From the NCBI GenBank assembly GCA_030681595.1, contig JAUXSB010000003.1, positions 31,207 through 95,206 on the forward strand: a stretch of DNA of 64,000 bases, given 5' to 3'. The translations under genes and the position numbers were made by a program. This DNA comes from Candidatus Omnitrophota bacterium (GTDB lineage Bacteria; Omnitrophota; Gorgyraeia; Ghiorseimicrobiales; Ghiorseimicrobiaceae). The notes beneath the pieces were generated by a model. It searched no databases. It was not told the origin of the DNA and saw only the letters and a list, made by a program, of their open reading frames with translations. The stretch's first letter is position 1. Each line of letters begins with the position of its first letter. Shown piece after piece: positions 8,590-50,800 of this stretch.

Positions 8590-8650
8590 GAAGCCTGTGG
8601 CTTTGGCTATATTGAAAGCCAAACCACTGCCCTCTGGCTGGTGGCTTGTA
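8590..8650. repeat. Single copy of the 44-bp hairpin repeat family (GGCTTTGGCTATATTGAAAGCCAAACC core)
   Basis: gtggctttggctatattgaaagccaaaccactgcc at 8597-8632 has the same core as the tandem array at 35608-35794. Confidence 0.8.
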
Positions 8651-11755: not shown

Positions 11756-11828
11756 CAATGCATAACTTACAAATTCCAAAACCTCCGGATGAACGAGTTA
11801 TTTACGCGTAGTAAAACCTACCTTTTCA

Positions 11829-15131: not shown

Positions 15132-15380
15132 TTAATGGTTTATATGCGGATGTTTTAGCTTATACCATTCGCAGAAAAAGCATTTCTCAATGCCGCGTTT
15201 ATCGCTGACTCTGCCGCAATATTGAGCCGCGACATGCCAACACTCTTTATCCGATTTATGGCTTTGGCGATATGGAAAGCCAAACCATTGCCTTGCCGGC
15301 TTATAGGCGGGGCAATTTTCTCTTGATTCTATTTTACATTCAAAATATTCCCAGCATGTTTTGGCATCTTTGTCAGGCAT
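15132..15380 (-). CDS. Small Cys-rich protein with two C-W motifs ('two-CW'-type)
   Basis: I take the start at the ATG at 15380 (MPDKDAKTCWEYFEC...CPAY...ECWHVAAQYCG...CFFCEWYK). The ATG overlaps the upstream kinase stop by 8 nt (ATGCCTGA). It is a paralog of 25662-25904. Confidence 0.55.
   Translation of the reverse strand: MPDKDAKTCWEYFECKIESRENCPAYKPARQWFGFPYRQSHKSDKECWHVAAQYCGRVSDKRGIEKCFFCEWYKLKHPHINH
15257..15304. repeat. Copy of the 44-bp hairpin repeat embedded in-frame in the two-CW gene
   Basis: ttatggctttggcgatatggaaagccaaaccattgccttgccggcttat is about 90% identical to the units at 35608-35794. It encodes KPARQWFGFPYRQSHK, a segment absent from the paralog. Confidence 0.75.
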
Positions 15381-24219: not shown

Positions 24220-25374
24220 TTAAGTTTCCCTATCTGCTATTTCTTCCCTGAATTTGACTACATGTTTTTTAAGATTATCCGCGAGATCATTCAGCTTGGT
24301 GGAACTAGCAACTGACTGCTTGGCCGCCACGGCAAACTGCTTGGTAACCGTATCGATGTTTTTCATTGCCTCGGCGACTTGCGAGGAGGCGGTCTTCTGC
24401 TGCTGGGTAGCCAGCGAGATTTCTTTGGAAATCTTAGCACTGTCTTCTACCATCTTTAAACCTTCGGAAACACCGCGTGTTGAATCTTCTATGCCCATTA
24501 CTACGCTGTTAGTTTCCGCCTGTATTTCATTAATCAGCTGCCTAATCTCCTCGGTGGACTCGACTGAACGCTCGGCTAATTTCCTTACCTCGGAAGCGAC
24601 TACGGCAAAGCCGCGCCCTGCCTCTCCTGCGCGCGCCGCCTCAATAGCGGCATTTAAAGCCAGGAGGTTGGTCTGGCTTGAGAGGTCGTCAATCATGGAA
24701 GTAATCTTGCCGATGGTCTGCGATTTTTCGCCAAGTGCCAATATTTTCTTGGCGGCATCGGAAACTTTGACGCTTATCTCTTTCATTTCAAGCAGGGTGC
24801 GCTCTGCGGCACGGGTGACGTTATACGCGTTTTCAGCGATAGATGAAGCGGTACGGGAGAGCTCTTCCATTGTGCTGGTAGTTTCAGTGACGGCGGAAGA
24901 CTGTTCAGAGGCACCCGAGGCCTGTTCTTCGGTCGAGGCCATTATTTGGGCAGCGCAGGAAGTTACTTCCAGGCTTGCCTGCTGGATCTGATACATTAAA
25001 TTTCTTATACTTGCTATCCTCTTTACTGCCGCTCCTTCTTCCATCCGTTTATCAATAAGCATCTCATGAAGGATATCTATGGTGCGGTTAAAACTTTCGG
25101 CGAATTTACCAAATTCATCCTTGGTTTTTATATCCAACACTAAATCATAGTTGCCATAATTAAGCCCTTTGGATACATCCACAATCAACTCTAAAGGCGC
25201 AAGAAGCCTAAAAATGCCATATATGATAAGAATTACGCTAACCGCTATTAAGATAAACTTTGAACCGAGGTTTAAAGAAGGGGTTAATTGCAGGGTGTCT
25301 ATCCAGAATAAGCCGATAAAAAGCAAAATAATAGCTGCGCCGGTGATTAATAATAATTTATACTTTACACGCAT
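24220..25374 (-). CDS. Methyl-accepting chemotaxis protein, paralog of 20464-21738
   Basis: 384 aa. It has the same signalling core. The 3' ~600 nt are nearly identical at DNA level to the other MCP. Confidence 0.9.
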
Positions 25375-25661: not shown

Positions 25662-25904
25662 TTACTGACTAACCTTAATTTCATCCCCTTTACCGTGATC
25701 CTTATAGACCTTACAAATCTTACAAACGCTGACATCTATGCCGGATTCGCCTTTACAGATAGTACCTTTTATTATCCAGCAAGGATATTCCTGTTTTTTG
25801 TATGCCGCGCAACTTGGCGCCCCACCGGGCTTAATCTCACAACCTCTTACTTCCCAACAAGCTGTTTTTCCGGACCAGAATCCTGTTCCTTTTGGTAAAG
25901 CCAT
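25662..25904 (-). CDS. Small Cys-rich protein with two C-W motifs ('two-CW'-type)
   Basis: 80 aa: ...TACWEVRGC...SCAAYKKQEYPCWIIKGTICKG...VCKICKVYK. A strong RBS (GGGGAGG) lies 5 nt upstream of the ATG. Confidence 0.6.
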   Translation of the reverse strand: MALPKGTGFWSGKTACWEVRGCEIKPGGAPSCAAYKKQEYPCWIIKGTICKGESGIDVSVCKICKVYKDHGKGDEIKVSQ

Positions 25905-25908
25905 CTTT

Positions 25909-26028
25909 TCCTCCCCTCAATGACGGCATAACTTATGGAGCCAGAGACGACATAAGTTATCAGCCGGAATTGATCCCGATAGTTACAAGAAAATTTAGTA
26001 TAAATTTTCGCAGTGTTTTACTATCGGG
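25909..26028 (-). promoter_or_regulatory. Conserved structured upstream element, copy C
   Basis: Read on the minus strand: CCCGATAGT-AAAACA-CTGCGAAAATTT-ATA-CTAAATTTTCTTG-TA-ACTATCGGG, then ATCAATTCC, the hairpin GGCTGATAACTTATG...CATAAGTTATGCC, GTCATTGAGGGGAGG and the ATG. Confidence 0.55.
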
Positions 26029-26147
26029 ACAATGATCCCCGTCGGTTATCTTATCCTCTGCAATTCGAAGAATTACGAGGACTTAGTCCCTGAAATTGCT
26101 TCGCAATTTCTAGGGGCGAGACGGGACAAACCGACCTTTCTATTTTC

Positions 26148-28883: not shown

Positions 28884-29002
28884 CCTCCTCAATGACGACA
28901 TAATTTACGGAAACGAAGTTGACGTAAATTATATGTCGGAATTGATCCCGCCGAATGTACCAAAATTATAGAATATAATTTTGGTACATTTTATGAGGCG
29001 GG
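28884..29002 (-). promoter_or_regulatory. Conserved structured upstream element, copy D
   Basis: Read on the minus strand: CCGCC-TCATAA-AATGTACCAAAATTATA-TTC-TATAATTTTGGTACATT-CGGCGG, then GATCAATTCC, the hairpin GACATATAATTTACG...CGTAAATTATGTC, GTCATTGAGGAGGAGG and the ATG. Confidence 0.55.
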
Positions 29003-29013
29003 ATAAACATTAA

Positions 29014-30042
29014 TCATTTCTGCGGATAAATAATTACTTTCACCGATTCTTTTGCCTCACTGACTAATTTAAAACCCAAAGCCGTATCTTTAAGCGGAAG
29101 CCGGTGCGTAATCATTTTCTCTAAACTAAGGCGCCCGGATTTTATCCAATCTAGCGCCTCGATGTGGTCGCAAGGGCTGCCTGCGTATGAAGAAATAATT
29201 TTACGCTCTGTACGCCAAAAGAGCTTATTTACCGGTAAATTTACGGCCGCGTCTTTATCGGTAGGCGCAAAAAATATTATTGTCCCTGCCAAATCCACTG
29301 ATTCAAACGCCTGATTTATAGCACTTGTTGCTCCCGTGCATAAGATAACTACATCAGCAAACCTTCCTTTATTGAGCTGGTAAAACCCTTGAGGCGTAAA
29401 TTCTTTTGCGTTTACGGCAAAGTCTGCGCCTAACTCTTTAGCTTTACTAAGCCGATGCTCATTGATATCTACCGCTACAATTAAACCAGCACCGCTTGCC
29501 CGCGCAAGATGGATATGTAAAAGCCCGGCTATTCCGCTTCCAATAACTAAAATTGATTGGTTCTTAGATAGATCGGCAATTCTTTGAGCTCGCAAGACAC
29601 AGGCAAGCGGCTCAATAAATGTAGCCAAATCAAAAGAAATATTTTCCGGCAGGCGATATACGCCGTCACGCACATTTATCGCCGGCAGGCGCACATATTC
29701 TGAAAATCCCCCGGGATAAAAATTAGTTTTACGCAGCGTCTCGCAGACCGTCTGGTAGCCATTTTTACAATAATAACACTCGTTGCAAGGGACATGGTGC
29801 GAAGCAGAAACCCTATCGCCCGTATCATATCCTTTAACGCCTTCTCCAACCTCAGCAACAGTCGCGGCTATTTCATGGCCCAATACTAAAGGAACCTTAT
29901 CTTTCCTGTACCACTCCATCACATCAGAACCGCATATCCCTGATGCCTCAACGCGTAACAAAAGCTCGCCCCTGCCTATTTTAGGCTTATCCGTTTCTTC
30001 GATACGCACATCAGAATTGCTGTAATATTTTGCTATACGCAT
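29014..30042 (-). CDS. Zinc-dependent alcohol/polyol dehydrogenase (MDR family, threonine/sorbitol dehydrogenase-like)
   Basis: It has GICGSDV, GHE and the structural-Zn motif CNECYYCKNGYQTVC, plus the Rossmann motif VIGSGIAG. The start is probably the third in-frame ATG (MRIAKYY); the track begins at 30063. Confidence 0.8.
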   Translation of the reverse strand: MRIAKYYSNSDVRIEETDKPKIGRGELLLRVEASGICGSDVMEWYRKDKVPLVLGHEIAATVAEVGEGVKGYDTGDRVSASHHVPCNECYYCKNGYQTVCETLRKTNFYPGGFSEYVRLPAINVRDGVYRLPENISFDLATFIEPLACVLRAQRIADLSKNQSILVIGSGIAGLLHIHLARASGAGLIVAVDINEHRLSKAKELGADFAVNAKEFTPQGFYQLNKGRFADVVILCTGATSAINQAFESVDLAGTIIFFAPTDKDAAVNLPVNKLFWRTERKIISSYAGSPCDHIEALDWIKSGRLSLEKMITHRLPLKDTALGFKLVSEAKESVKVIIYPQK

Positions 30043-34314: not shown

Positions 34315-35364
34315 TTAGGCAGGATTCACAAAGAAAAGCGAAGGGAATACATTCATCAGGATTATAAATATGGCAACTACTATTATCCAACCCGCCAACG
34401 CAGATAATATACTTAAAGCCGCTTCTTTCTTCAAAACTCTCCTGATATCGCAGGTAAGGCCGATGGCCGCCAGGGCCGCGCCGAAAATAATCTTATACCA
34501 TGGCTTAATCAGGGGCGAATATTGCTCTAGGGGCGTATAAGTAAAAAGCAGGGCCGCGCCAAAGAACAAATAAGCGATAGTTAAGCTGTATTTAATTACC
34601 GAAAGGCGTATCTCTGCGGTAGCTTTTTTTGACTTTAACTGATTCAAGAAAAGCACGATAAAACTAAACGGAAGGATGAGCGTGGTGCGGATATATTTAA
34701 CATTCAAGGCGAGCTTATCCAGGCCCTTTTCCATAAAAGTTCCTGCCGTCTGGACTAAGCCATCCTGATTAAAGGTCAACCCGCAGAATATGGCAAACTT
34801 TTCGCCATAAACATCGGCCGCGAAAAACAATTTATTCAGGAAAAATACACTGGCAAAAAATGACACCACGCCTACGAGAAGTATGCTGATAAGCGCTTTA
34901 GTCACATCTTCTTCCTCGGCATCAACCATGGGAGAACTTACCGCGATGGCGGCCACCCCGCATATAGCCGAGCCCACAGATGTAAGAAGGTTAGTCTTGT
35001 ACGTTACCTTGAGTAACTTATTAAGAAAATAAACTATTAAAAAAGTAAGCGCTGAATAAATTACGCATTGGAAGAGGATATCGCTGCCGATAACGCAGCA
35101 TAAAGCGATCTTTTTAAAATTAATCTCGGTGCCGTACAAAAACAAACCTACGGGCAAAAGAATATCTTTGCATAATGCCGTACCTATCCAAAGCGAATTT
35201 TTACGCGGAAAACAAGAACCGATAATAACGCCGATAATTACCGCGACAGCGAACGCGTTAATAAACTTATACAAACCGGATAACCAATAACTAAAAATAG
35301 ATATGCCCAAGGCAAGCAAAAAACCGGGTAACGCTAAAGCAAACAATCCCTTTTCTTTACCCAT
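34315..35364 (-). CDS. Polytopic membrane protein, possibly YeiH/UPF0324-type transporter
   Basis: 349 aa with about 10 predicted TM segments. The family assignment rests only on general resemblance. Confidence 0.35.
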   Translation of the reverse strand: MGKEKGLFALALPGFLLALGISIFSYWLSGLYKFINAFAVAVIIGVIIGSCFPRKNSLWIGTALCKDILLPVGLFLYGTEINFKKIALCCVIGSDILFQCVIYSALTFLIVYFLNKLLKVTYKTNLLTSVGSAICGVAAIAVSSPMVDAEEEDVTKALISILLVGVVSFFASVFFLNKLFFAADVYGEKFAIFCGLTFNQDGLVQTAGTFMEKGLDKLALNVKYIRTTLILPFSFIVLFLNQLKSKKATAEIRLSVIKYSLTIAYLFFGAALLFTYTPLEQYSPLIKPWYKIIFGAALAAIGLTCDIRRVLKKEAALSILSALAGWIIVVAIFIILMNVFPSLFFVNPA

Positions 35365-35593
35365 GGCTCTTTTCCCCTTCTTGGCTTAAACCAGATATAG
35401 TCAAACTATCGGTTTTAAGTATTTTTTTTGCTTCTTCGACAAGCTTTGTTTCCAGCTGCACGTCATCAGGCGTATCTTCGGAAAAACTCTCCACATCCTG
35501 GCCAAGCTTGAAACTCAACATCGCCACAGCCAGATTCTTAAAAACAGACCTCGCCTTTACTACATCAACTATCGCCTTAAGTTTTCCCGCCAT
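35357..35593 (-). CDS. Hypothetical small acidic protein
   Basis: 78-aa ORF that overlaps the downstream gene by 8 nt. I recognise no motif. Confidence 0.35.
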   Translation of the reverse strand: MAGKLKAIVDVVKARSVFKNLAVAMLSFKLGQDVESFSEDTPDDVQLETKLVEEAKKILKTDSLTISGLSQEGEKSHG

Positions 35594-35607: not shown

Positions 35608-35794
35608 CTTATGGCTTTGGCTAAATTGAAAGCCAAACCATTGCCTTGTGGCTTATGGCTTTGGCTATATTGAAAGCCAAACCATTGCCTTGTGGCTTAT
35701 GCCTTTGGCTATATTGAAAGCCAAACCATTGCCTTGTGGCTTATGCCTTTGGCTATATTGAAAGCCAAACCATTGCCTTACCGGCTTATGCCTT
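35608..35794. repeat. Tandem array, 4.2 copies of a 44-bp hairpin unit
   Basis: The unit is CTTATGSCTTTGGCTATATTGAAAGCCAAACCATTGCCTTGTGG. Copies lie at 35608, 35652, 35696 and 35740, with a partial copy at 35785. Each unit contains the hairpin TGGCTTTGGCT-atattgaa-AGCCAAACCA. Confidence 0.9.
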
Positions 35795-36032
35795 ATTCAA
35801 ATTTACTATTTTAATTATATCAACTTTCTTCAAATATTGCAACCCAATAAATTACCGCGAGCCTTATTATAGTTATAGCACATAAATTAACTACTGGCGC
35901 AGAAAATAACGCCTTATACATAAGCGCATTAAGGTTACAAGACATTCTGCTATGCAGGCAACACTTCAACTTATCTTTCCGCATTAATGCTCATTTAAAT
36001 ATAATGCTGCTTATGAAAATATTAATGCAGTA

Positions 36033-39766: not shown

Positions 39767-40650
39767 TTAACAGGTTTAAACTCTTGCCACCCAAAAAACT
39801 CAGGATATTCACGCCAGGGTCCCTCGCAAATTTTGAAATATTTGCATTCTTCACACTTCGGCCCTTTAAGTTTTCCATGTTCTCTGCGCCACTGGTTAAA
39901 ATTGGTTATCGGTTTAATATCAAATACCTTGGTTTCAGGAATAATCGCTTCACTAGCACAATTGGCATATTCGCTTAAAAAACAATACGGTATGGCTTCA
40001 GTTTTTGGCATTTTTTTCTTCCTAATGCCAATTTCCAGGCCGCGTTTTAAATAAAGAATAATATCTTTTTTCTGCGGTATTAGCCAACTATGATTCGCTA
40101 ATGCGTTTCCTAAAATATGAGGAAAGGAAAAACGATATTCAACCACCCCTAAGCCAACTAACATCAAAGCAATCTTAGGTAAAAAGCGGTAATTCAATGC
40201 AGTAATAACTGTATTAGTAAATACTACGCGACCAGAAGAAAGGAGATGCTTAATACCACAAATCGTCTGAGCGAAACTTCCCCTCGCTCCCGTATGGCTA
40301 TCATGCAACTCAGCATTATGTCCATGTACCGATATAGTAAAAAGACTTGCACCTGCCTCTATCATTTTTTTACAAAAATCTTTATACCTAAACATTCTTC
40401 CGTTGCTTTGAATATGAACAATATATCCTAACTTTTTAGAATATCTTACCAAGTCTATGATATCAAAACGTATTGTAGGTTCTCCACCTGTAAAAATTAC
40501 CTCTTTATAACTATCTTTCGAATCAGCTAAAATAGTTTCTATCTGTGAGCGCGCCATATCGTTGTAGATTTTGCGCTTGTTACCTTGGACACAAAAACTA
40601 CAGTGGTTATTACATCTAAAACTAATTTTTATATCCAGCCTCTTATGCAT
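39763..40650 (-). CDS. Small radical SAM protein, paralog S12
   Basis: It has RCNNHCSFCVQG, FTGGEPT, SVHGHNAELHD and IPYCFL. The C-terminus is CEECKYFKICEGPWREYPEFFGWQEFKPVK. Its closest paralog is 55967-56872. Confidence 0.85.
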   Translation of the reverse strand: MHKRLDIKISFRCNNHCSFCVQGNKRKIYNDMARSQIETILADSKDSYKEVIFTGGEPTIRFDIIDLVRYSKKLGYIVHIQSNGRMFRYKDFCKKMIEAGASLFTISVHGHNAELHDSHTGARGSFAQTICGIKHLLSSGRVVFTNTVITALNYRFLPKIALMLVGLGVVEYRFSFPHILGNALANHSWLIPQKKDIILYLKRGLEIGIRKKKMPKTEAIPYCFLSEYANCASEAIIPETKVFDIKPITNFNQWRREHGKLKGPKCEECKYFKICEGPWREYPEFFGWQEFKPVK

Positions 40651-40681
40651 ACATCTATCCTAACCTTAATTATCCGTTGTC

Positions 40682-41614
40682 TTACGGCTCGCTTTTAACA
40701 TGTTTTATTGTCTCTTCTTTGGAAACAAAAACAGCGTATAGTTCTTGCGAAGAAAAATATTTATCCATCGCATAAAGGCCGGGACATATTTCATTCAAAA
40801 AACAAACACTACAACACTCAACCTTGCCATATGACCATCCTCTTTGGACTTTAAGGCCCTTTTCATCTAAGAAATAAATCGCGCGCTTCTCTCTCTTTAT
40901 TATTTTTCTGGCTTCCGTAGAACAATGTGCAAAATCAGCCATGTAACATAAGGGTACGCGTTCCGCCCTAAAAGTTCTCTTTTGCTCGGCTAAAAAATGC
41001 ATTGCCCTATTGAGCTCTAATTCAAAATCTATCAGTCGGGGAATCGTATCGGGATTTTCTGATGCGCGGTTCATCGAAGGGTCAATATTATTCCAGATAA
41101 AATGGCGAATAAACGGATATCTATTCACAAGCCACGCCGTAATTCTGCTTAAATGATCGGCATTATATTTATTAATCACGGTAATAACATCAACCTGCAA
41201 ATTTAACTTTTTGGCATTGTTAAGCGTTTTTTTAATGTTACATAAAGAATCCTTGTTCTCAGTAAGAAAACCCTGAATATCAGCACTATCAGAGTAGATG
41301 GATAAATTGATATGGTTTAATCCTGCCTCTGCCAATGAGTTAATATATTTAAAGTCGGCTGTTTTTTGGCCATTCGTTATTATTCTGACTGGAAAATTTT
41401 TGTTTGTTGCATACGCGATCAATTCAATGAGATCTGGATATAGGGTCGGCTCTCCTCCGCTTAAAATAACCCCATCGCAACCTATCTTGACATAATAATC
41501 AATTAACTCCTTAGCTTTCTTAAGAGATATGGTTTTATCAAACGACGGATTAGAACAAAATCTGCATTTTTGATTACAAATACGCGTAACCTGTATATAA
41601 GCTAATTCGGCCAT
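40682..41614 (-). CDS. Small radical SAM protein, paralog S11
   Basis: It has ICNQKCRFCSNP, LSGGEPTLYP and VPLCYM. The C-terminus is CCSVCFLNEICPGLYAMDKYF. Confidence 0.85.
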   Translation of the reverse strand: MAELAYIQVTRICNQKCRFCSNPSFDKTISLKKAKELIDYYVKIGCDGVILSGGEPTLYPDLIELIAYATNKNFPVRIITNGQKTADFKYINSLAEAGLNHINLSIYSDSADIQGFLTENKDSLCNIKKTLNNAKKLNLQVDVITVINKYNADHLSRITAWLVNRYPFIRHFIWNNIDPSMNRASENPDTIPRLIDFELELNRAMHFLAEQKRTFRAERVPLCYMADFAHCSTEARKIIKREKRAIYFLDEKGLKVQRGWSYGKVECCSVCFLNEICPGLYAMDKYFSSQELYAVFVSKEETIKHVKSEP

Positions 41615-41618
41615 GTTT

Positions 41619-42644
41619 TCAGTAATTGCATTTATGTTTATGCTTGTTTTTTATTTCTGAATCAAATATGCTAATCCGCTCTAAAGTATGCAATATTTCT
41701 TTCGGATTTTTATCTGAAAGCGTTAGATTAAAATTAGGATAAACTTTTAGATAATCTCTTCTTACCCCCGGGCATATTTCACACAAAGAACAGCCTCTGC
41801 ATTCTCTGTATTTATAAAAATCTTCTTTGGCGATATCATTTTGAGTCCTGAGATTATTTATCCCGCGCGAATCAAGATATAAGTTATTATGATATAAATT
41901 TTCTTTTAATTCAACACTGGACCATTCATAAGAAGAGAGGATACATAACGGAAAACCGCAAGCAGAAATTTTATCCGTAGGGTTATCCCCTCCTAACGCC
42001 TTTAACGCTTTTAAAAGATAAGGCTGAATCTTATTTAGCGGAGGAAGTATCTTTTTGTAAAAAGTACTGTCATTGCCGCCTAAATCCATAAATTTAAATT
42101 TTACCCTGAATGGCGTATGCCTTAATATTTTTTTAAGATGAGTCGCCATGCCCTCTAATTCTTTATAATTCAAGCTATTAATTACCGTGTTGAAATTAAT
42201 CGCTAGCCTTTCTCTTATCTTTTTATTATCCTTATTAAATGATTCGATATTTAGTAAAGCCTTTTCCTGTAAAGAATGGCAAAACTTATTTCTTGATATG
42301 GCATTTGCAACCTTTGGGATATGCGAGTGAAAAGAAAAATTTATCTGCACGACTCCGCCTTTAATAACCTTAACTAAAAAATCATAGTAACTAAGCATTG
42401 AACCGTTAGTTGTAACCTTAAGTTTTAAATTACATTTTTTGGCTTCTTCCAATATTTTTAAAAAATCTGGCCTAATGAATGATTCCCCGGTCATTAACAT
42501 AACTGTATCTTCCTTGTAACTCTTAACTTTTTGAAACAATTGCCTAATTTCTCCAAAAGAAAGATCTTTTTTATGCTTATGCTGCCTATCCAGACAAAAT
42601 AAACAGTTGAAATTACATTTTTGGGTAATGCCTGTAATAATCAT
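41619..42644 (-). CDS. Small radical SAM protein, paralog S10
   Basis: It has KCNFNCLFCLD, LMTGESF and FPLCIL. The C-terminus is CRGCSLCEICPGVRRDYLKVY. Confidence 0.8.
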   Translation of the reverse strand: MIITGITQKCNFNCLFCLDRQHKHKKDLSFGEIRQLFQKVKSYKEDTVMLMTGESFIRPDFLKILEEAKKCNLKLKVTTNGSMLSYYDFLVKVIKGGVVQINFSFHSHIPKVANAISRNKFCHSLQEKALLNIESFNKDNKKIRERLAINFNTVINSLNYKELEGMATHLKKILRHTPFRVKFKFMDLGGNDSTFYKKILPPLNKIQPYLLKALKALGGDNPTDKISACGFPLCILSSYEWSSVELKENLYHNNLYLDSRGINNLRTQNDIAKEDFYKYRECRGCSLCEICPGVRRDYLKVYPNFNLTLSDKNPKEILHTLERISIFDSEIKNKHKHKCNY

Positions 42645-44734
42645 TAATTTTCTATCGGCTTTAAATCAGAAAACGAATAAATTAATGCGTATTCTCGCCA
42701 TACGCCATTACAAAAATTATATAAATTACATTTAACACAATTTGGCCCCTTAATTTTGCCTAAATTTAAATTATTTTCCCGCGAATTAAATCTTAAAGTA
42801 TTTTCGGTATATTCCACACATTGGCTAAGGTACTTATGCCATCCTCCTATACATAACGGGACACCGCAATATGGATTAAATATCATTAAATCACATTTTT
42901 TAGCCAGCTCGACTGCCTTTTTGATATAGGGAGAGATTATTCCATATGACGGTATAAGATACTTATTTATTAATGCCCGCTCCCGCGGCTGGATAACCGA
43001 AAGCGAGATATTTTTAATTTGGGGAAATTTATTATGAACAAATTTTATGTATTCGGGTAACTCTTTGTAATTTTGGGTAGTTATAACCGGATTTAAGGTA
43101 ACATCAATATTTAATTCTAATGAATTCCTAATCCCTGCGATAGCCATATCGAAGGCACCCTCCAACCCTACCAGCTTATCATGAATTCCAGGTACTGAAG
43201 AATGCAGGCTAATAAATAGCTTATTCAGCCCGGCATATTTCAATTTTTTTAAATAATCGTTATCGGATAGCCTTATCGCGTTAGTTTGAACCTGAACTAT
43301 TTTTACTCCTTTTCTATGGGCATATTTTATCAACTCCGAAAGGTCTTTTCTCAGGGTAGGCTCACCGCCGGTAATATCCAACTCCAACCTTAATTCCTTA
43401 TCAAGTGCGGTCAAGCGGCCTATTTCAAGTTTAGCCTGTTTAGTCGAAAGCTCTTTTAGAGCATACGATTCCGGAGGAACATTACAAAATAAACATCCGG
43501 CATTACACGCTGAGCCTAATCGTAAAAGCTTATATGGGGAGTTTTTCTTGACATCACCAATACTAATTTTCTTTAACCCGGCTTTAATCGGTGATAAAAC
43601 CTCAAATCCGTGCTTACGGATATAATTACACTGCATTCCAGCACAGCCTGCCATATGTTTGCACTCCTTGCATCTTTTACTTTTCAAAAAATATCTGTGT
43701 TGAATATAAAAATCAAGAAACTTTAAAATATCTTTATTTTTTTGGTCATTTTGCACATATACTGCCGGCCTGCCCGAATATCCCGGTTCATTTATTTCCC
43801 CTAAACAAAAAGGGGAGGCATGCGAAAGTATTTTATTTTTTTTCTTTAATTCTATTAAATCCTTACAAAAATTTTCTAAAAAACAAAACCGGCACCTCAA
43901 GCCTTTACAATCCATCACTTTGCCTTTAAAAAGAAAATTATTAAACATATCCTTGCGGCCGCCTACTTCATCGTATAATTTAGCCGGGTGCTGGATTAAA
44001 TATTCAAATCCTTCAAGATACTGCGGGGGGAAACGATTTGTCCATATATGTAGCCGCGGATCTTTGGATAGCATAAAAGCTTTGCGCAAAAATTTAATTG
44101 ATTTTTGAATATCATAAAAGAGAATATCCCTCTTAGCCCATGCTTGCCCAAATGGGATAACTTGCAAAAGATCAAACTCATATACGCCCAAATTAATAAA
44201 GAATTCTAAAATACTTGCTAAATACATTACATTAATTTTGTTTATCACAATATCAACACTAACAATCAAATCTTTTTCTTTTAAAGCATTAACTAAGGCT
44301 ACTAACGACTGCTGAAATGATCCCGGTACTTTAGTTTGTTGATCATGAAGCCTGCTATTATGCCCATGCAGCGAAAAGGTTATTTCTGATACACCGCTTT
44401 CTATTGCCTGCTTTAAGAAGCTCTGGTAGGCAAACATCCGGCCATTGGTAATAACTTGAATATGGCTGTATCCTAATGTCCTCGCCATATTAACAATATT
44501 AAAAAAATCCGGATGGATTGTTGGTTCTCCCCCGCTTAAAACAACTCGTCTTATCCCTAAACCTCTGCCTTTTTGTAAATCGGCTTTGATCTTCTCTAAA
44601 GGGATTACGCTCCCATCATGGGCTTCTTTATCTAAACAAAAGAGGCAGCGGTTATTACAACCCCGGGTTAGCCGTACCCAGTGTCTTTTTACCTGTGGTA
44701 TAATTTCTCGTTGCATAGAATAGCCTTTTATCAT
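42644..44734 (-). CDS. Fused di-domain radical SAM protein (paralogs S8 + S9 in one 696-aa polypeptide)
   Basis: There are two complete units. Unit 1 has GCNNRCLFCLDK...LSGGEPT...CKECKHMAGCAGMQCNYIRKHGFEVLSPIK. Unit 2 has ACNAGCLFCNVP...ITGGEPT...VPLCIGG...CVKCNLYNFCNGVWREYALIYSFSDLKPIEN. Confidence 0.85.
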   Translation of the reverse strand: MIKGYSMQREIIPQVKRHWVRLTRGCNNRCLFCLDKEAHDGSVIPLEKIKADLQKGRGLGIRRVVLSGGEPTIHPDFFNIVNMARTLGYSHIQVITNGRMFAYQSFLKQAIESGVSEITFSLHGHNSRLHDQQTKVPGSFQQSLVALVNALKEKDLIVSVDIVINKINVMYLASILEFFINLGVYEFDLLQVIPFGQAWAKRDILFYDIQKSIKFLRKAFMLSKDPRLHIWTNRFPPQYLEGFEYLIQHPAKLYDEVGGRKDMFNNFLFKGKVMDCKGLRCRFCFLENFCKDLIELKKKNKILSHASPFCLGEINEPGYSGRPAVYVQNDQKNKDILKFLDFYIQHRYFLKSKRCKECKHMAGCAGMQCNYIRKHGFEVLSPIKAGLKKISIGDVKKNSPYKLLRLGSACNAGCLFCNVPPESYALKELSTKQAKLEIGRLTALDKELRLELDITGGEPTLRKDLSELIKYAHRKGVKIVQVQTNAIRLSDNDYLKKLKYAGLNKLFISLHSSVPGIHDKLVGLEGAFDMAIAGIRNSLELNIDVTLNPVITTQNYKELPEYIKFVHNKFPQIKNISLSVIQPRERALINKYLIPSYGIISPYIKKAVELAKKCDLMIFNPYCGVPLCIGGWHKYLSQCVEYTENTLRFNSRENNLNLGKIKGPNCVKCNLYNFCNGVWREYALIYSFSDLKPIEN

Positions 44735-45693
44735 TTAATTGCCCTGAATTCGCCCCAGCCAACCTTTTCGGCATAAAGATTATCTATACCGCTGCATTTA
44801 TAATAATATTTGCATGGTTTACAGCTTTTATTTTTTATATTCCTTGATTCACGAGGTAATATTTCTACTCTTTTATTTTTAACCTGAAGTGGGATTTCGG
44901 ATTCCCCGACGTAATTTTCATAACCTACCATCAAACAAAGCGGCACAGGAGATATCTGTATAACGCCGGATAATCTAAACAGCTTATCTACTTTTAACCT
45001 ATCAATTACATTCCTAACTTCTTTAGCTACATCCAAATAAGTAACAAATAACTGACTGAAGAATCTTTCTGCGTTGCCGGAATACATTGGCATATTTAAC
45101 ACAATGCTATCTACTTTATTAAACGGTAAGATTTTTCTTAAGAAATTTTCAATATCTCTGTAGTTAATTTTTGTCATGGTAAAATTAACATTAAGCCGAA
45201 ATCTATATTTTTCCTTTAAAGAGACCATGTTGCATAACCCTTGCCATGTTTGTTCAAATGCACCGCTGCTACGAGTTAAGGCATCATGGATTTTTTTATT
45301 ACTCCCGTGAAGAGAAATATTAATCTCATTTAGCCCGCTATCTAATAATTCAATGCAAAAGTTTTTATATCTTAATAAACGCCCGTTTGTCTGTAGGCAA
45401 ATATCTTTATATCCCCACTTCTTAGATAATCTTATGAAATAAAGTAAGCCCTTATTCAGCGTTGACTCTCCCCCCGTAAATGATATGGAATCGACTTCTT
45501 TTGTTTTTCTTCCATCTCTTTTAAACATATCCAGATTTAAAAATGGTTCTCCGTTGACACTGCAATAATATTTTGACAACATATTCTGGCCATTAATACA
45601 ATCGCGATCACAGCAAAAAATACAATTATTGTTACAACACCCGCTGGTTTTAATATGAATTCTACTATCAGGGCTTATAATTACGTTATCCAT
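44731..45693 (-). CDS. Small radical SAM protein, paralog S7
   Basis: It has CCNNNCIFCCD, FTGGEST, SLHGSNKKIHD and VPLCLM. The C-terminus is CKPCKYYYKCSGIDNLYAEKVGWGEFRAIK. Confidence 0.85.
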   Translation of the reverse strand: MDNVIISPDSRIHIKTSGCCNNNCIFCCDRDCINGQNMLSKYYCSVNGEPFLNLDMFKRDGRKTKEVDSISFTGGESTLNKGLLYFIRLSKKWGYKDICLQTNGRLLRYKNFCIELLDSGLNEINISLHGSNKKIHDALTRSSGAFEQTWQGLCNMVSLKEKYRFRLNVNFTMTKINYRDIENFLRKILPFNKVDSIVLNMPMYSGNAERFFSQLFVTYLDVAKEVRNVIDRLKVDKLFRLSGVIQISPVPLCLMVGYENYVGESEIPLQVKNKRVEILPRESRNIKNKSCKPCKYYYKCSGIDNLYAEKVGWGEFRAIK

Positions 45694-45696
45694 TCT

Positions 45697-47055
45697 CTAA
45701 CGGTAAAAAAATAATGCGTAGATATATTTTTCTTCCGGCTTATCAAAATAAAAACAAATGTAATCATCAAAAATCTTTATTTTTCCAAGCCGCTTTAAAG
45801 CGTAAATAGCATAAGGAAAGGCAACAAAAATACTTGTACCAAACACAGCCTCAAATATTTTTTGAGGAACCTTGGATTCTAAGGCTAAATGATTTATTAT
45901 AAATTTTATCATCGCCTCTTTTTTCCTTAATATTCTACCCTCATATATTTTACTATCAAACTCAAAATGCCTCGGTTGCTTAACTTGACGATACTCCAGC
46001 ATACCATGTATATACGACCTGGAAAATGTTCCCAGGCCAAAGGTACACCCTGCGTATTCACCGGAATAATCTTGGGAAAAACTAGAGTCAAGATGTTCCT
46101 TATGGCGAAAGCCCCAATGGAACCTGGCAGGGTCAAAAGAGTCCGCTACATAGCCGAATTTCCGGCTTAATACACGCATAATTTTTAATGCCCGTGAAAT
46201 CATGGATGGATAATGCTTTTGAAAATAATCTGCGCGGCTCATCTTGAAATATTTACGCAGATATCCGTCATTAGGCGGCATTAAACCATAGACAACGATA
46301 TTATAAGGCCTTAATTTAGCAATTTCAGAAAAACTTTTTGTAAAGCCATTTGGGCTATCCCCTGCGAGACCGGCTATTAAATCGACACTAATATCCCTAA
46401 AACCATTTTCTTTTACCAGCCCAATTGCTTTTTTAATGCTCGCGTAATCCTGATAGTCCCTTTTATGAATTTTTAAAACCTTAGCATTTAAAGTTTGCAC
46501 GCCAAAACTAACTCTATTAAATCCAAAATGCTTAAGTAAGCTCAATCTTGAATTTCTTGTACTGCCTGGATTACATTCGGCTGTTTTTTGGCTATCGCCA
46601 CAAAATGAAAAATACCGGAAAAGATTTGTGAGAACCTTATCAAGTTGTTTGCTGTTTAAAATACTTGGTGTACCGCCTCCGACATAAAGATTACGGAATT
46701 TAATTTGGCTGAATGTATCGGAAAAAAAACACATATTCTCAATCAAATAATCCACATACCGGTCTATCTCTCTCCTGTCTCTTGCTGTCTGCGAAGGATA
46801 CGAACAATAAACACATTTTGACTGACAAAATGGGATATGGATGTAGAAATCGATATCGCACGGGTTGTTTTTATTTTTAGCATACTGGATAAATTTAGCC
46901 CAATAATCTTTAATTAGGCGGGGGCTAATCTGCCGGTTATAATCGGAATATGTATGCAGTTGATTAATATCATAAAAATAATCCCTCCGCCTAAGAATAT
47001 TTTCAAAATACGACACCTCATTCCTTAATATTTTTAAAATGTTGTTATCGCTCAT
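45697..47055 (-). CDS. HemN-like (oxygen-independent coproporphyrinogen oxidase family) radical SAM enzyme, copy 2
   Basis: 452 aa. It has YIHIPFCQSKCVYCSY, LYVGGGTPS and NRVSFGVQT, the classic HemN/HemZ-family motifs. Confidence 0.8.
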   Translation of the reverse strand: MSDNNILKILRNEVSYFENILRRRDYFYDINQLHTYSDYNRQISPRLIKDYWAKFIQYAKNKNNPCDIDFYIHIPFCQSKCVYCSYPSQTARDRREIDRYVDYLIENMCFFSDTFSQIKFRNLYVGGGTPSILNSKQLDKVLTNLFRYFSFCGDSQKTAECNPGSTRNSRLSLLKHFGFNRVSFGVQTLNAKVLKIHKRDYQDYASIKKAIGLVKENGFRDISVDLIAGLAGDSPNGFTKSFSEIAKLRPYNIVVYGLMPPNDGYLRKYFKMSRADYFQKHYPSMISRALKIMRVLSRKFGYVADSFDPARFHWGFRHKEHLDSSFSQDYSGEYAGCTFGLGTFSRSYIHGMLEYRQVKQPRHFEFDSKIYEGRILRKKEAMIKFIINHLALESKVPQKIFEAVFGTSIFVAFPYAIYALKRLGKIKIFDDYICFYFDKPEEKYIYALFFYR

Positions 47056-47063
47056 ATGAATAA

Positions 47064-47990
47064 CTAAATAGGGCTTAATTCTTTATCGCCAAATTCTTTA
47101 TAATAACGCTTAAATATTCCCCCGCAGATATTCTTCTTTGCGCAACGCTGGCATACAACTGTATAGATCCTCCCCCTAACCGGCCTGTACGAATGCGTAA
47201 CCTTAAGAAATCTTTGGCTACTTCTATGCATCTTTTCGATTGTCGTCCGGGGAGACCACCAAAGATCATTAGAACAGCCCTGATAATTATTCAATATACA
47301 AAGCGGTATCCCAAAAAATCTAACAACCAAAGAATTCCTATCGGCTTCGGATATAATTGTTCTAATGTTTTCTTTAATTAACTTAAGGGGCACGGATAGC
47401 TCGCAAAAATTATCCAAAGCATTGCCTTCAGGAGCAATATTAGAAATGAGTATCTGCTTTATTTTTTTGAAATTAGAGATAAATTTGATTATGCGATCTA
47501 GCGATCCAAAATTATACCGCGTCAATACGATATTAACAATGCCGAATATGTCTTTCGGATGCCTATCTATATTTTTTAACGCACGAAGCAAATTATCAAA
47601 ACTATGTTCGTTATTTGTATGAAAATTATGGAGTTTAGCGCTGTGGCCATGCAAAGAGAAGCAGAACTCATCAACATAATTTAAGGCCTCCCGAGTGAAA
47701 TCTTTTAAATAAAATAATCCTCCGTTACTCGTAGTATAAGTTTTATAGCCTTTAGTTTTTGCTAATTTAACTATTTCCACAAAATCGGGATGAAAAGTCG
47801 GTTCTCCTCCGGTAAAAGTAACATGATTAATTCTTCCCTTGTGATATTTTTCCAAAACGTTATTTACAACCGATTTCGGCAAAAAATACCCTTTAAACTT
47901 TATTAGCTGCTTATGCTCACTGCAAAAAATACAGTTATTTACGCAATCATAGGATATATGCAATTCTAATCGTTGTATATTATTTTCCAT
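47064..47990 (-). CDS. Small radical SAM protein, paralog S6
   Basis: It has DCVNNCIFCSEH, FTGGEPTFHP, SLHGHSAKLHN and IPLCIL. The C-terminus is CQRCAKKNICGGIFKRYYKEFGDKELSPI. Confidence 0.85.
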   Translation of the reverse strand: MENNIQRLELHISYDCVNNCIFCSEHKQLIKFKGYFLPKSVVNNVLEKYHKGRINHVTFTGGEPTFHPDFVEIVKLAKTKGYKTYTTSNGGLFYLKDFTREALNYVDEFCFSLHGHSAKLHNFHTNNEHSFDNLLRALKNIDRHPKDIFGIVNIVLTRYNFGSLDRIIKFISNFKKIKQILISNIAPEGNALDNFCELSVPLKLIKENIRTIISEADRNSLVVRFFGIPLCILNNYQGCSNDLWWSPRTTIEKMHRSSQRFLKVTHSYRPVRGRIYTVVCQRCAKKNICGGIFKRYYKEFGDKELSPI

Positions 47991-47994
47991 ATCA

Positions 47995-48912
47995 TTATTT
48001 AATCGGCTTTATTTCGCGATCACCATAATATTTTAGGTATATATCCCAAACACCTTTACACTTATCAGCAATCTTACAAAATAAACATTTTCTAATTTTT
48101 ATTCGATTAATTATTTTTTTTGACTCGATATTTTCGTACTGTTCAATTTTATTTTTAGATATCAACCGAGGCGTACTTTCAAACGAATATTCATTTTCCT
48201 CGATAGTACCGGATATCTGCTTAAGATAGTCCCCAAAATAGCATAAGCAGGGAACATTTAAAGCCGCATAGCTAACCTCATCATCTAACCGCCCAATATC
48301 TAAAAATTTGCGAATATAATACGCGGCTGTAGAAATACGCGGCGTATATTTATAAAAATCACGCGGGGAACTAACATAAATGAGGCATGCCGTTTTTATC
48401 CCAACACGATAGATTAACTTACCTATATCATATAAATATTTATAATTCTGCTTAACAATTACCGTGTTTGTACCTATATTATCAAACCCGAATTTCCTAA
48501 GGTTGGCAATCCCTTCCTTAAGATGTTTAAAGCTCCCCTCTACCTGCGATAGATAATCGTGTAATTTTGCATTATGCCCGTTGATCGTAAAGATTATACG
48601 AGAAATTCCTGCCTCAATAGCCCTACGAGTAAAATCTTCATAAGAGAAAAACCTGCCATTTGTAGTCAAAGTGATATTTTGAAAACCTATATTTTTGGCA
48701 AATTTTAGCAAATAAAAAAAGTCCGGCCTAATCGTAACCTCCCCCCCGGCAAAAAAAGCATCAACAGCCCCAGCTTTTTTCGCTTCTTTAATCTCCCGCA
48801 TTATTTCCTGTGTCGTTTTAACAGGAATACCCCTATATGCCCTATCGCCGCAAAAACGGCAATAATTATTACAGGAATAACCGGTAAGAAATTTTGCTGT
48901 TTTATCTTGCAT
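47995..48912 (-). CDS. Small radical SAM protein, paralog S5
   Basis: It has SCNNYCRFCGD, FAGGEVT, TINGHNAKLHD and VPCLCY. The C-terminus is CLFCKIADKCKGVWDIYLKYYGDREIKPIK. Confidence 0.85.
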   Translation of the reverse strand: MQDKTAKFLTGYSCNNYCRFCGDRAYRGIPVKTTQEIMREIKEAKKAGAVDAFFAGGEVTIRPDFFYLLKFAKNIGFQNITLTTNGRFFSYEDFTRRAIEAGISRIIFTINGHNAKLHDYLSQVEGSFKHLKEGIANLRKFGFDNIGTNTVIVKQNYKYLYDIGKLIYRVGIKTACLIYVSSPRDFYKYTPRISTAAYYIRKFLDIGRLDDEVSYAALNVPCLCYFGDYLKQISGTIEENEYSFESTPRLISKNKIEQYENIESKKIINRIKIRKCLFCKIADKCKGVWDIYLKYYGDREIKPIK

Positions 48913-48922
48913 TGATAATAGT

Positions 48923-50455: not shown

Positions 50456-50536
50456 TTAAAAGCGTGAAAATGTGTTTTCTTTCGAATAAATACGCAAATT
50501 ACTGTGAATCATTTTTTTAAATTTACGGTTATCCCC

Positions 50537-50775
50537 CTAGGTGTTTAAAAGTATATCCCGTATAGACGAAGAGGTTTTTCCGATATCATCCAAACTTTTT
50601 ATATCATTCACTGTGCCAAAATAAAATTCTCTTTTTAGCTTTTTAAATTTAGTCTCAAGCAATGGCCCCCCACAAAATATATCCCCCCGTCGCAATCAAC
50701 AGCCGGTTCAGAAGATATGATCCGCTCACCTTCCCGAATTTTGAAATTCGCTATAAAATTAATAATCTATTGATA
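50537..50775 (-). pseudogene. Possible decayed or frameshifted small ORF in the only large intergenic gap of the cluster
   Basis: Two overlapping minus-strand frames read ...EGERIISSEPAVDCDGGIYFVGG and GGPLLETKFKKLKREFYFGTVNDIKSLDDIGKTSSSIRDILLNT*. Adding one G in the G6 tract (50666-50671 on plus) would fuse them. No canonical start codon is present. Confidence 0.25.
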
Positions 50776-50800
50776 CTGGGTAAAACTTGCGTATCCATAA

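What the first reader, a model, noticed from the sequence alone, without database searches (positions are those of the whole stretch)
35608..35794. 44-bp hairpin repeat: 4.2 tandem copies, a solo copy at 8590-8650, and an in-frame copy inside a coding sequence at 15257-15304
The unit is CTTATGSCTTTGGCTATATTGAAAGCCAAACCATTGCCTTGTGG, which contains the hairpin TGGCTTTGGCT/AGCCAAACCA. It is tandemly repeated immediately upstream of the 35593 gene and occurs once downstream of rluA.

A copy about 90% identical lies inside the two-CW gene, where it encodes KPARQWFGFPYRQSHK. Aligned with the paralog at 25662-25904, this segment falls exactly where the paralog has nothing (CPAYK[...]ECW versus CAAYKKQEYPCW). 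This looks like a REP/MITE-like element that inserted into an ORF and was tolerated as a linker between the two CW motifs.
Basis: seen in the sequence. Interest (0 to 1): 0.6.

Follow-up and report, generated by a model that had tools for sequence, protein, structure and literature searches.

The report
Hairpin repeat that inserts into genes
A 45-base hairpin repeat found across Omnitrophota bacteria copies itself next to TTAT sites, between genes and also in-frame inside many unrelated genes (here a small two-CW protein), much like the Rickettsia palindromic elements but a third of their size.

Summary
The window (a Candidatus Omnitrophota MAG) carries six copies at three loci. These are a 4.2-copy array (35608-35794), a diverged solo copy (8595-8642) and an in-frame copy (15256-15304) in the two-CW gene.

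A syntenic ortholog and eight other homologs lack exactly those 15 codons. The family unit is 45 nt: a bulged 11-bp hairpin plus a 3-bp hairpin, both supported by covariation, with TTAT at both ends.

Scans of public genomes and metagenomes gave 103 distinct strong copies, almost all in Omnitrophota. At least 27 lie inside long ORFs, in five of the six reading frames and in both orientations. Hosts include TsaD, RibF, GltB, DinB and ApbE.

TsaD orthologs form a 0/1/2-copy series. The empty site reads TTTAT|CGG and the filled site has exactly +45 nt, so this is site-specific insertion.

No terminal inverted repeats and no flanking transposase were found. A RAYT-like Y1 transposase is common in the phylum, but its link to the element is unproven. 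No paper or Pfam/NCBIfam model describes it.

It is a new small relative of REP and Rickettsia-palindromic-element type selfish DNA.

The parts
35608..35794 (+). Tandem array of 4.2 head-to-tail copies. Three are 44-nt units. The last copy, 35740-35789, is full length and ends ...CCGGCTTAT. The array lies between a promoter-like site and the start codon of the 78-aa gene.
   Evidence: TRF; repeat families D2/D4; nhmmer and CM hits; sequence read.
15256..15304 (+). Single full-length copy (TTAT + 41 nt + TTAT) inside the two-CW gene. It is read on the opposite strand as KPARQWFGFPYRQSH. The net insertion is 45 nt.
   Evidence: Absent from the syntenic ortholog and 8 other homologs.
8595..8642 (+). 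Solo copy of a diverged subfamily. It has the same hairpin, but the 3' part is ACTGCCCTCTGGCT. It sits in the spacer between the pyrophosphatase gene and the RluA-family gene.
   Evidence: 64 bits with model R1.
15132..15380 (-). Host gene: an 82-aa two-CW-like Cys/Trp-rich protein. It sits in an operon between a histidine kinase (15373-16917) and a PAS-GGDEF-HD protein (13537-15117). The reading frame is intact through the insert.
   Evidence: (NF045718, 24.4 bits, below the cutoff of 35).
25662..25904 (-). Paralogous two-CW-like gene without the insert.
35357..35593 (-). 78-aa gene whose presumed 5' untranslated leader carries the array. The array ends 15 nt before the ATG. Two other contigs (L122 and L123, identical to each other over the 200 nt read) encode the identical protein with no array upstream and have TATAAG at the corresponding place.
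35814..35842 (-). Sigma-70-like promoter match (TTGCAA-17-TG-TATAAT, 10 of 12) about 20 nt upstream of the array. If it is used, the array is transcribed as part of the leader.
   Evidence: This is a consensus match only and the role is inferred.

Best explanation
The repeat is a copy of a small, non-coding, mobile palindromic DNA element that is spread through Omnitrophota genomes.

**Anatomy**
- The unit is 45 nt, which equals 15 codons.
- It has a bulged 11-bp hairpin (ATGG-C-TTTGGCT / AGCCAAA-CCAT) with an 8-nt loop.
- A 3-bp mini-hairpin (GCC/GGC) follows.
- The element ends in TTAT and is always preceded by TTAT.

**Behaviour**
- New copies are added exactly next to a pre-existing TTAT. 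This gives either a 4-bp TTAT duplication or insertion 3' of TTAT.
- Each copy ends in TTAT, so it recreates a target. This could explain the head-to-tail arrays.
- The unit is a multiple of three and five of its six frames lack stop codons. Insertions into genes therefore keep the reading frame, add a 15-residue loop, and often survive.

**In this window**
- One copy landed in the short linker between the two Cys/Trp halves of a two-CW protein and is translated as KPARQWFGFPYRQSH.
- An array expanded in the leader of a 78-aa gene.
- An older, diverged copy sits in an intergenic spacer.

**Shown versus inferred**
- Shown: the family, its structure, the insertion, the target site and the in-frame tolerance.
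- Inferred, at about 0.3: movement goes through single-stranded DNA, catalysed in trans by a Y1/HUH tyrosine transposase. The candidate is the RAYT-like Y1_Tnp + DnaA_C-HTH protein family that is common in Omnitrophota.
For: **Family and ends**
- The core pattern was found in 16 true loci from 9 species-level assemblies (8 labelled Omnitrophota), and in 101 metagenome stretches.
- There are 103 distinct strong copies with sharp boundaries. Information content falls to background left of TTAT and right of TTA(T).

**Insertion**
- TsaD orthologs of 88-98% identity form a series. The empty site is CCT TTTAT CGGATTGG. The one-copy allele has +45 nt and the two-copy allele +90 nt at the same point.
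- Against the solved T. maritima TsaD (6nak_B), residues 129-157 have no counterpart.
- An AlphaFold model (pLDDT 85.5) has its only segment below 50 at residues 130-155, which is the insert.
- The two-CW insert is missing in the syntenic ortholog and in all other homologs.

**Coding compatibility**
- 27 of 102 copies have at least 60 open codons on both sides, and 21 more lie near an ORF end.
- All five open frames are used.
- The split is 16 on the same strand and 11 on the opposite strand. This matches the 3:2 ratio expected from open frames alone.
- Hosts are unrelated: TsaD, RibF (twice, in opposite orientations), GltB, a FadB-like protein, DinB, ApbE, glycosyltransferases and a protein of more than 4,200 aa.
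- Tandem periods are mainly 45 (13 cases) and 42 (14 cases).

**Structure**
- 7 of 15 pairs show changes on both sides, against 2.0 in shuffles, and 91.6% of cells are paired.
- Slid controls give 23-51% paired.
- The predicted DNA and RNA folds match the proposed structure.

**Candidate enzyme**
- L061 encodes a Y1_Tnp + DnaA_C protein (Pfam 46 bits; NCBIfam REP_Tyr_transpos 79 bits against a cutoff of 80) 210 nt from a copy.
- This protein family is abundant in Omnitrophota.
Against: - No autonomous partner was identified.
- Four other RAYT-like loci (L127, L130, L132, L134) have no copy nearby.
- A phmmer search with E. coli RayT against all ORFs of the fetched DNA gave only the L061 hit.
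- One adjacency in about 0.75 Mb of DNA is within chance.
- Classical REPs flank their RAYT as inverted pairs, whereas these copies are direct tandem repeats.
- TTAT duplication and insertion 3' of TTAT cannot be told apart from sequence alone.
- Whether the in-frame copies are translated is inferred from intact frames only. No protein or RNA data were available.
- The collection scans used an exact core pattern, so the counts are biased towards well-conserved copies.
- Whole-genome copy numbers are unknown.
Confidence: 0.8

Rival explanations
1. The hairpin is mainly a host-selected cis-acting signal, such as an mRNA stabiliser or attenuator, or a binding site for a DNA or RNA protein, as proposed for some REPs. 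On this view the copies persist because they do something useful, not because they are selfish.
For: - The stem is maintained by compensatory changes across subfamilies.
- The array lies between a promoter-like site and a start codon.
- Sequence is about 90% or more conserved across species.
- The orthologous copies in L002 and L003 differ at 1 of 49 nt, while the flanking 100 nt on each side are 81% identical.
Against: - Orientation relative to transcription inside genes is as expected by chance.
- Copies sit in five frames within unrelated enzymes.
- Presence, absence and copy number vary between close orthologs.
- In the L002/L003 alignment, other stretches of the same gene are also about 98% identical, so the extra conservation is not decisive.
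- No Rfam family matches.
Confidence: 0.12
2. The 45 nt are removed at the RNA level as a mini-intron recognised through its hairpin, so the host proteins do not contain the extra 15 residues.
For: The structure is conserved, and copies occur inside essential genes such as TsaD.
Against: - The net insert is always a multiple of three.
- The stop-containing frame is never used among 27 interior copies.
- The opposite-strand frame ISR(Q)GNG... is used only by variants that lack its stop codon.
- These constraints would be unnecessary if the RNA were spliced.
- Both orientations occur in genes.
Confidence: 0.03
3. The resemblance arises from local slippage or minisatellite expansion, or from assembly or binning artefacts that paste a repeat into contigs, and not from transposition.
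For: - Tandem arrays with variable copy number exist.
- Contigs often end at copies.
Against: - About 100 dispersed loci have unrelated flanks.
- The same in-frame insert is recovered in independent assemblies and sources. Examples are P0016 on 7 contigs and the TsaD alleles from NCBI, JGI, ENA and Logan.
- Frames are preserved.
- Junctions at TTAT are exact.
Confidence: 0.03
4. The coding segment is ancestral to the two-CW family and the intergenic copies derive from it, or the similarity is convergent.
For: None beyond the shared sequence.
Against: - All nine homologs, including the syntenic ortholog, lack the segment.
- The element is found in five frames in unrelated genes.
Confidence: 0.01

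Closest known systems
Rickettsia palindromic elements (RPE-1 to RPE-10; Ogata et al. 2000, as reviewed in PMC10969869)
   Same: - Palindromic, non-autonomous repeats found both between genes and in-frame inside many unrelated housekeeping genes.
- They add a peptide segment that the protein fold tolerates.
- The mobilising enzyme is unknown.
   Different: - RPEs are about 100-150 bp and restricted to obligate intracellular Rickettsia.
- This element is 45 nt with one main hairpin, forms head-to-tail arrays, has a defined TTAT site, and occurs in Omnitrophota.
- Its peptides match no NCBIfam or Pfam model.
- There is no sequence relationship.
REP / REPIN elements mobilised by RAYT (REP-associated tyrosine transposases)
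   Same: - A short (20-50 nt) imperfect palindrome with a short conserved single-stranded tail.
- Many dispersed copies, and clusters of copies.
- A RAYT-like Y1 transposase family is present in the same phylum, and one such gene lies next to a copy.
   Different: - REPs are by definition extragenic and typically occur as inverted pairs flanking or near their RAYT.
- Here at least 26% of copies are inside ORFs and clusters are direct tandem repeats.
- Four of five RAYT-like loci examined have no copy nearby.
IS200/IS605-family elements and their miniature derivatives (PATEs)
   Same: - A subterminal hairpin and no terminal inverted repeats.
- Insertion at a specific tetranucleotide, here TTAT.
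- From my own knowledge, IS608 uses TTAC, ISDra2 uses TTGAT, and some family members use TTAT.
   Different: - Those elements have distinct left and right end hairpins and are at least 100 nt even when miniature.
- No TnpA or TnpB gene bounded by these ends was found.
Intragenic MITEs of other bacteria (ERIC, BOX, Coxiella QMITE1; reviewed in PMC10969869)
   Same: They occasionally form in-frame fusions with host ORFs.
   Different: They have terminal inverted repeats, are larger, and are rarely intragenic.

Membership tests
REP / REPIN-RAYT system | Short imperfect palindrome, repeated many times | tested here: met
   11-bp bulged stem with covariation. 103 distinct strong copies in the fetched DNA. 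Three loci in 64 kb of the window.
REP / REPIN-RAYT system | Confined to extragenic space | tested here: not met
   27 of 102 copies are interior to long ORFs and 21 more lie near ORF ends. Verified in TsaD and the two-CW gene.
REP / REPIN-RAYT system | Cognate RAYT gene flanked by or associated with the repeats | tested here: inconclusive
   One RAYT-like gene lies 210 nt from a copy (L061). Four other RAYT-like loci have none. Whole genomes could not be scanned.
REP / REPIN-RAYT system | Inverted pairs (REPINs) as the replicating unit | tested here: not met
   Clusters are head-to-tail with periods of 42-45 nt. Only a few chance-like inverted pairs were seen.
MITE | Terminal inverted repeats | tested here: not met
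   The ends GGCTTTGGC... and ...CTTACCGGC are not complementary. The palindrome is internal.
MITE | Target-site duplication | tested here: inconclusive
   TTAT is at both ends and once in the empty site. This fits either a 4-bp duplication or insertion 3' of TTAT.
MITE | Related autonomous IS with the same ends | tested here: not met
   None was found in about 0.75 Mb around copies. There were no matches in IMG/VR viral contigs.
Rickettsia palindromic elements | In-frame insertion into unrelated protein-coding genes with the fold retained | tested here: met
Rickettsia palindromic elements | Sequence homology to RPE families, size about 100-150 bp, genus Rickettsia | tested here: not met
   The unit is 45 nt. 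Peptides from all five frames hit no NCBIfam or Pfam model. From my own knowledge, NCBIfam includes RPE domain models. The host is Omnitrophota.
IS200/IS605-derived miniature element (PATE) | Subterminal hairpin(s), no TIR, insertion at a fixed tetra- or pentanucleotide | tested here: met
IS200/IS605-derived miniature element (PATE) | Y1 transposase that recognises these ends | not testable with these tools
   This needs whole-genome co-occurrence analysis and biochemistry. Only a candidate family was found.
CRISPR array | Repeats separated by unique spacers | tested here: not met
   Units abut with no spacer.
two-CW domain protein (NCBIfam NF045718), host gene | Score above the curated cutoff; two C-W motifs with conserved Cys | tested here: inconclusive
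   24.4 bits (window gene) and 25.0 bits (paralog) against a cutoff of 35. C9, W10, C15, C23, C47, C67 and C70 are invariant across homologs.

The most novel reading that the evidence does not exclude
Omnitrophota carry an active family of 15-codon, stop-free, 'coding-compatible' hairpin elements. On this reading they are mobilised in trans, through single-stranded DNA, by the phylum's RAYT-like Y1 transposase fused to a DnaA-type helix-turn-helix domain, and they insert 3' of TTAT. Unit lengths of 45 and 42 nt and the open frames would then be adaptations to very gene-dense small genomes. This would make the family a continuing source of new surface loops in essential proteins.
Probability: 0.25. 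Interest if true: 0.75.

Novelty: new variant of a known kind. Interest (0 to 1): 0.6.

Why it matters
- It extends 'selfish DNA inside protein-coding genes', so far best known from Rickettsia, to an uncultivated phylum of very small bacteria.
- The element is only 45 nt long and has a defined TTAT insertion site.
- Natural 0/1/2-copy alleles exist in an essential gene. Together these make the mobility mechanism and protein tolerance to loop insertion directly testable.
- Practically, these copies break metagenome assemblies.
- They also add 15-residue segments that can confuse homology searches and family cutoffs. Both two-CW proteins in the window score below the NCBIfam cutoff.

Tried and rejected
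- **Rfam.** A gathering-threshold scan of the window found only a tRNA.
- **Peptide families.** Trimer translations of the five open frames hit nothing credible in NCBIfam or Pfam.
- **Viral contigs.** A scan with the core pattern gave 0 matches, so there is no sign of a phage vehicle.
- **Genes between copies.** Inverted or same-strand copies in L069, L083, L094, L053, L064, L056, L033 and L090 enclose a DEAD-box helicase, a PIN-like protein, an ATPase, two-component regulators, a CxxCxxCC protein and aspartate-semialdehyde dehydrogenase. None is a transposase.
- **E. coli RayT.** A phmmer search against 3,159 six-frame ORFs gave one weak hit, the L061 gene.
- **Other RAYT-like loci.** Four further loci showed no flanking copies and no shared hairpins.
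- **AlphaFold of the two-CW protein.** The model was too poor to use (pLDDT 54.5). Its lowest-confidence stretch, residues 30-47, does overlap the insert.
- **RibF against solved structures.** The insert falls in a loop that already varies in length, so there is no clean gap.
- **Extra conservation of the L002/L003 copy.** It looked significant without gaps. The gapped alignment shows neighbouring gene stretches equally conserved, so I do not rely on it.
- **L122/L123 as an empty site for the array.** The protein is identical and TATAAG is at the right place, but the upstream DNA is too diverged for a clean junction.
- **Literature.** Searches for Omnitrophota/Omnitrophica with palindromic, REP or MITE terms found nothing relevant.

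Full report
**1. Observation**

The 29-nt hairpin core occurs six times at up to 3 mismatches, at 8598, 15259, 35612, 35656, 35700 and 35744. All are on the + strand, and none is expected in shuffles.

A covariance model built later (R1) was run without filters. It finds exactly these six copies at three loci and nothing else above noise.

The ORF 15132-15380 on the - strand reads MPDKDAKTCWEYFECKIESRENCPAYKPARQWFGFPYRQSHKSDKECW.... The paralog 25662-25904 reads ...CAAYKKQEYPCW....

Three details need correcting:
- The 44-nt period is a local 1-nt-shorter variant of a 45-nt family unit.
- The solo copy (8595-8642) belongs to a diverged subfamily.
- Every gene nearby is on the - strand. The solo copy therefore lies upstream of the RluA-family gene and downstream of the pyrophosphatase gene.

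**2. Is the copy in the two-CW gene an insertion?**

The word-indexed protein search found only the protein itself. It is a hypothetical protein of a Candidatus Omnitrophota MAG, on a 307-kb contig.

The exhaustive representative search found P0002 (62 aa, 65% identity), P0003 (71 aa) and more distant 60-90-aa relatives. In the alignment all nine homologs, including the window's paralog, lack exactly KPARQWFGFPYRQSH. The Cys and Trp positions on either side are invariant.

P0002 is encoded in the same gene order: response-regulator/PAS histidine kinase, two-CW, PAS-GGDEF-HD, CTP synthase. It is therefore a positional ortholog without the insert. The DNA alignment shows a 45-nt gap.

The insertion reading is supported.

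**3. The element is a family spread through Omnitrophota**

A scan of one genome per species with CTTTGGC-N6-GAAAGCCAAACCA returned 19 loci.
- Sixteen are true copies, from nine assemblies.
- Eight of those assemblies are labelled Omnitrophota or Omnitrophica, and one is a short contig binned as Gottesmanbacteria.
- The other three loci match only the core and look like chance hits.

A metagenome scan returned 101 more stretches.

A profile search of all fetched DNA gave 187 hits, of which 103 are distinct strong copies. Conservation is about 90% or more inside the element and falls to background within one or two bases at each side. The left edge is TTAT (information 1.4-1.9 bits). The right edge is TTA(T), with the final T present in 72% of copies.

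Weaker hits define a second subfamily. It has a 6-nt loop and the tail ACTGCCCTCTGGCTTGT, with a unit of about 42 nt. The window's solo copy resembles it in its 3' half.

**4. Structure**

The unit folds into a bulged 11-bp stem (ATGG-C-TTTGGCT / AGCCAAA-CCAT) with an 8-nt or 6-nt loop, followed by a 3-4-bp stem (GCC/GGC). Both DNA and RNA predictions give this fold, with z-scores of about -3.

I tested covariation on 53 diverse copies:
- 91.6% of cells are paired, against 23-51% when partners are slid.
- 7 of 15 pairs show changes on both sides, against 2.0 in shuffles.
- Examples are A:T to G:C at the stem base, TT/AA to GC/GC, and G:C to C:G, A:T or T:A.

I hand-picked these sequences for diversity, so the numbers are indicative. 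The compensatory variants are nonetheless plain in the raw copies.

**5. Many copies are inside genes, in frame**

- Five of the six frames of the consensus unit are free of stop codons. One of these is open only in the G variant of the tail.
- Of 102 distinct strong copies, 27 have at least 60 open codons on both sides.
- A further 21 lie near an end of a long ORF.
- All five open frames are used. The peptides are YGFGYMESQTIALPAY, MALAIWKAKPLPYRL, LWLWLYGKPNHCLTGL, ISRQGNGLAFHIAKAI and KPVRQWFGFPYSQSH.
- Orientation splits 16 on the same strand and 11 on the opposite strand. That is the 3:2 ratio expected from open frames alone, so there is no bias relative to transcription.
- Host proteins are unrelated. 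They include TsaD, RibF (two independent insertions in opposite orientations), glutamate synthase, glucan phosphorylase, a FadB-like enzyme, O-antigen ligase, an amine oxidase, ApbE, DNA polymerase IV, glycosyltransferases and an ORF of more than 4,200 codons.
- Intragenic copies are as close to the consensus as the others, with a mean of 1.0 against 2.7 mismatches over 41 positions.
- Tandem periods cluster at 45 (13 cases) and 42 (14 cases), both multiples of three. The window's 44 is a minority type.

**6. Direct evidence of insertion and its target**

TsaD homologs of the L012 protein form an allelic series. P0017, P0019 and P0020 (322-324 aa) have ...PALPF-IGLVVSGGH. P0016 has one extra FMALAKRKAKPLPCRL. 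L012 and P0013 have two.

At the DNA level:
- Empty allele: CCT TTTAT CGGATTGG.
- One-copy allele: CCT TTTAT [GGCTTTGGCTAAAAGGAAAGCCAAACCATTACCTTGCCGGCTTAT] CGGATTGG.
- Two-copy allele: the bracketed 45 nt twice.

The event therefore adds exactly 45 nt beside a pre-existing TTAT. The same TTAT flanks are seen at all three window loci.

Against the solved Thermotoga TsaD, residues 129-157 of the two-copy protein have no counterpart. An AlphaFold model of P0013 is confident overall (pLDDT 85.5, pTM 0.82). Its only segment below 50 is at residues 130-155, which is the insert. The insert behaves as an extruded, probably disordered loop.

The two-CW model was too poor to use (pLDDT 54.5). Its lowest-confidence stretch, residues 30-47, overlaps the insert.

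**7. The array in the window**

A good sigma-70-like match (TTGCAA-17-TG-TATAAT) lies about 20 nt upstream of the array on the - strand. The array ends 15 nt before the ATG of the 78-aa gene. If the promoter is real, the array forms most of the leader.

Two other contigs (L122 and L123, identical to each other over the 200 nt read) encode the identical 78-aa protein. They have no array and carry TATAAG at the corresponding place. This is consistent with an empty site. The upstream DNA is too diverged for a clean junction, so I treat it as suggestive only.

**8. How it moves (inferred)**

There are no terminal inverted repeats. No transposase gene lies between paired copies. No viral contig carries the element.

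A hairpin with a fixed tetranucleotide at the junction is the signature of elements handled as single strands by Y1/HUH tyrosine transposases. These are the IS200/IS605 TnpA proteins and the REP-associated RAYTs. This rests on my knowledge of those families.

A search of all fetched ORFs with E. coli RayT gave one hit. It is L061 357-1298.
- It matches Pfam Y1_Tnp (46 bits) plus a DnaA C-terminal helix-turn-helix domain.
- It scores 79 bits on NCBIfam REP_Tyr_transpos, against a cutoff of 80.
- I read HYH and Y-x3-NP motifs in its sequence.
- It ends 210 nt from an in-frame element copy in the next gene.

This protein family is very common in Omnitrophota metagenomes. Most members lie on contigs of 1-2 kb.

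However, four other loci encoding such proteins have no element nearby. One adjacency in about 0.75 Mb of DNA is within chance. I therefore rate the Y1-transposase mechanism at about 0.3. I leave open whether TTAT is duplicated or is a 3'-of-target site.

Each unit ends in TTAT. Either model lets a new copy insert directly after an old one, which could account for the head-to-tail arrays.

**9. Rivals**

- **Host-selected function.** This is not excluded for particular copies such as the leader array. As a general explanation it fits poorly with random orientation in genes, five frames, unrelated hosts and copy-number polymorphism. The apparent extra conservation of the L002/L003 copy is not decisive, because nearby gene segments are equally conserved.
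- **RNA-level excision.** This is unlikely. Insert length and frame usage show the constraints expected of translated sequence.
- **Slippage or assembly artefact.** This cannot explain about 100 dispersed loci with exact TTAT junctions recovered by independent assemblies.
- **Origin from the coding sequence.** This is refuted.

**10. Comparison and novelty**

The closest known behaviour is that of the Rickettsia palindromic elements. These are palindromic repeats found in-frame in many unrelated genes (Ogata et al. 2000, as summarised in PMC10969869). This element is unrelated in sequence, a third of their size, forms tandem arrays and has a defined target.

It resembles REPs in size and shape but is not extragenic and does not form inverted pairs. 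It fails the terminal-inverted-repeat criterion for MITEs.

I found no paper on such repeats in Omnitrophota. No Pfam or NCBIfam model matches the encoded peptides.

I class it as a new variant of a known kind, with moderate-to-high interest. The window's own instance is one modest in-frame insertion. The family behind it is a clean, testable system for selfish DNA in coding sequence.

Noticed in passing
window 11640-11790, 25895-26050, 28890-29030, 5885-6000 (- strand): A conserved leader of about 110 nt lies upstream of four genes, including the two-CW paralog. It has a large palindrome (CCCGATAG...CTATCGGGATCAATTCCG), a second hairpin (ATAACTTATGTCGTC / ATAAGTTATGCCGTC) and a ribosome-binding site. 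It looks like a shared regulator-binding or 5'-UTR element. There is no Rfam match at gathering threshold.
   Followed up: partly
window 8548-8581: The heptamer CAAGCTG is repeated 4.9 times directly beside the solo element, between it and the RluA-family start codon. More GCTNNNN-like heptads continue into the element's flank.
   Followed up: no
window ~40400-56800 (- strand): At least eight paralogous genes share a conserved 60-nt stretch (repeat family D1, which encodes a GGEP-type radical-SAM-like motif). This suggests a large cluster of radical SAM enzymes.
   Followed up: no
window 57838-57893: The 9-nt repeat GCCATGGGA occurs 6.1 times inside overlapping ORFs.
   Followed up: no
window 20515-20814 and 24289-24588; also 21389-21537 and 25025-25173: These segments are 88% and 74% identical and lie within two paralogous genes (20464-21738 and 24220-25374) about 3.7 kb apart.
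   Followed up: no
TsaD homologs P0015 and P0018 (alignment A4, columns 122-140): A second insertion of 19 aa (FTPSETAGQPKERKMFLMG) lies about ten residues upstream of the element site in some TsaD alleles. It may be another coding-compatible repeat family.
   Followed up: no
L061 357-1298; P0133-P0252: A family of about 314-aa Y1_Tnp + DnaA_C helix-turn-helix (RAYT-like) proteins is very abundant in Omnitrophota metagenomes. Most members are on contigs of 1-2 kb, as expected for repeat-flanked or multi-copy genes.
   Followed up: partly
right flank of element copies (positions +1 to +4 after TTAT), e.g. L009 7882-7885: There is a weak preference for CGG(T) just after the element: C in 38, G in 46 and G in 38 of 83 copies. 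CGG is also present in the empty TsaD site (TTTAT|CGG). With the element's CCG it can form a CCG-GCTTAT-CGG mini-palindrome, which may be part of target recognition.
   Followed up: partly
L015 4898-4946 and L025 1111-1160: The riboflavin kinase loop of RibF was hit twice independently by the element, in opposite orientations, in different lineages. This marks an insertion-tolerant loop.
   Followed up: partly
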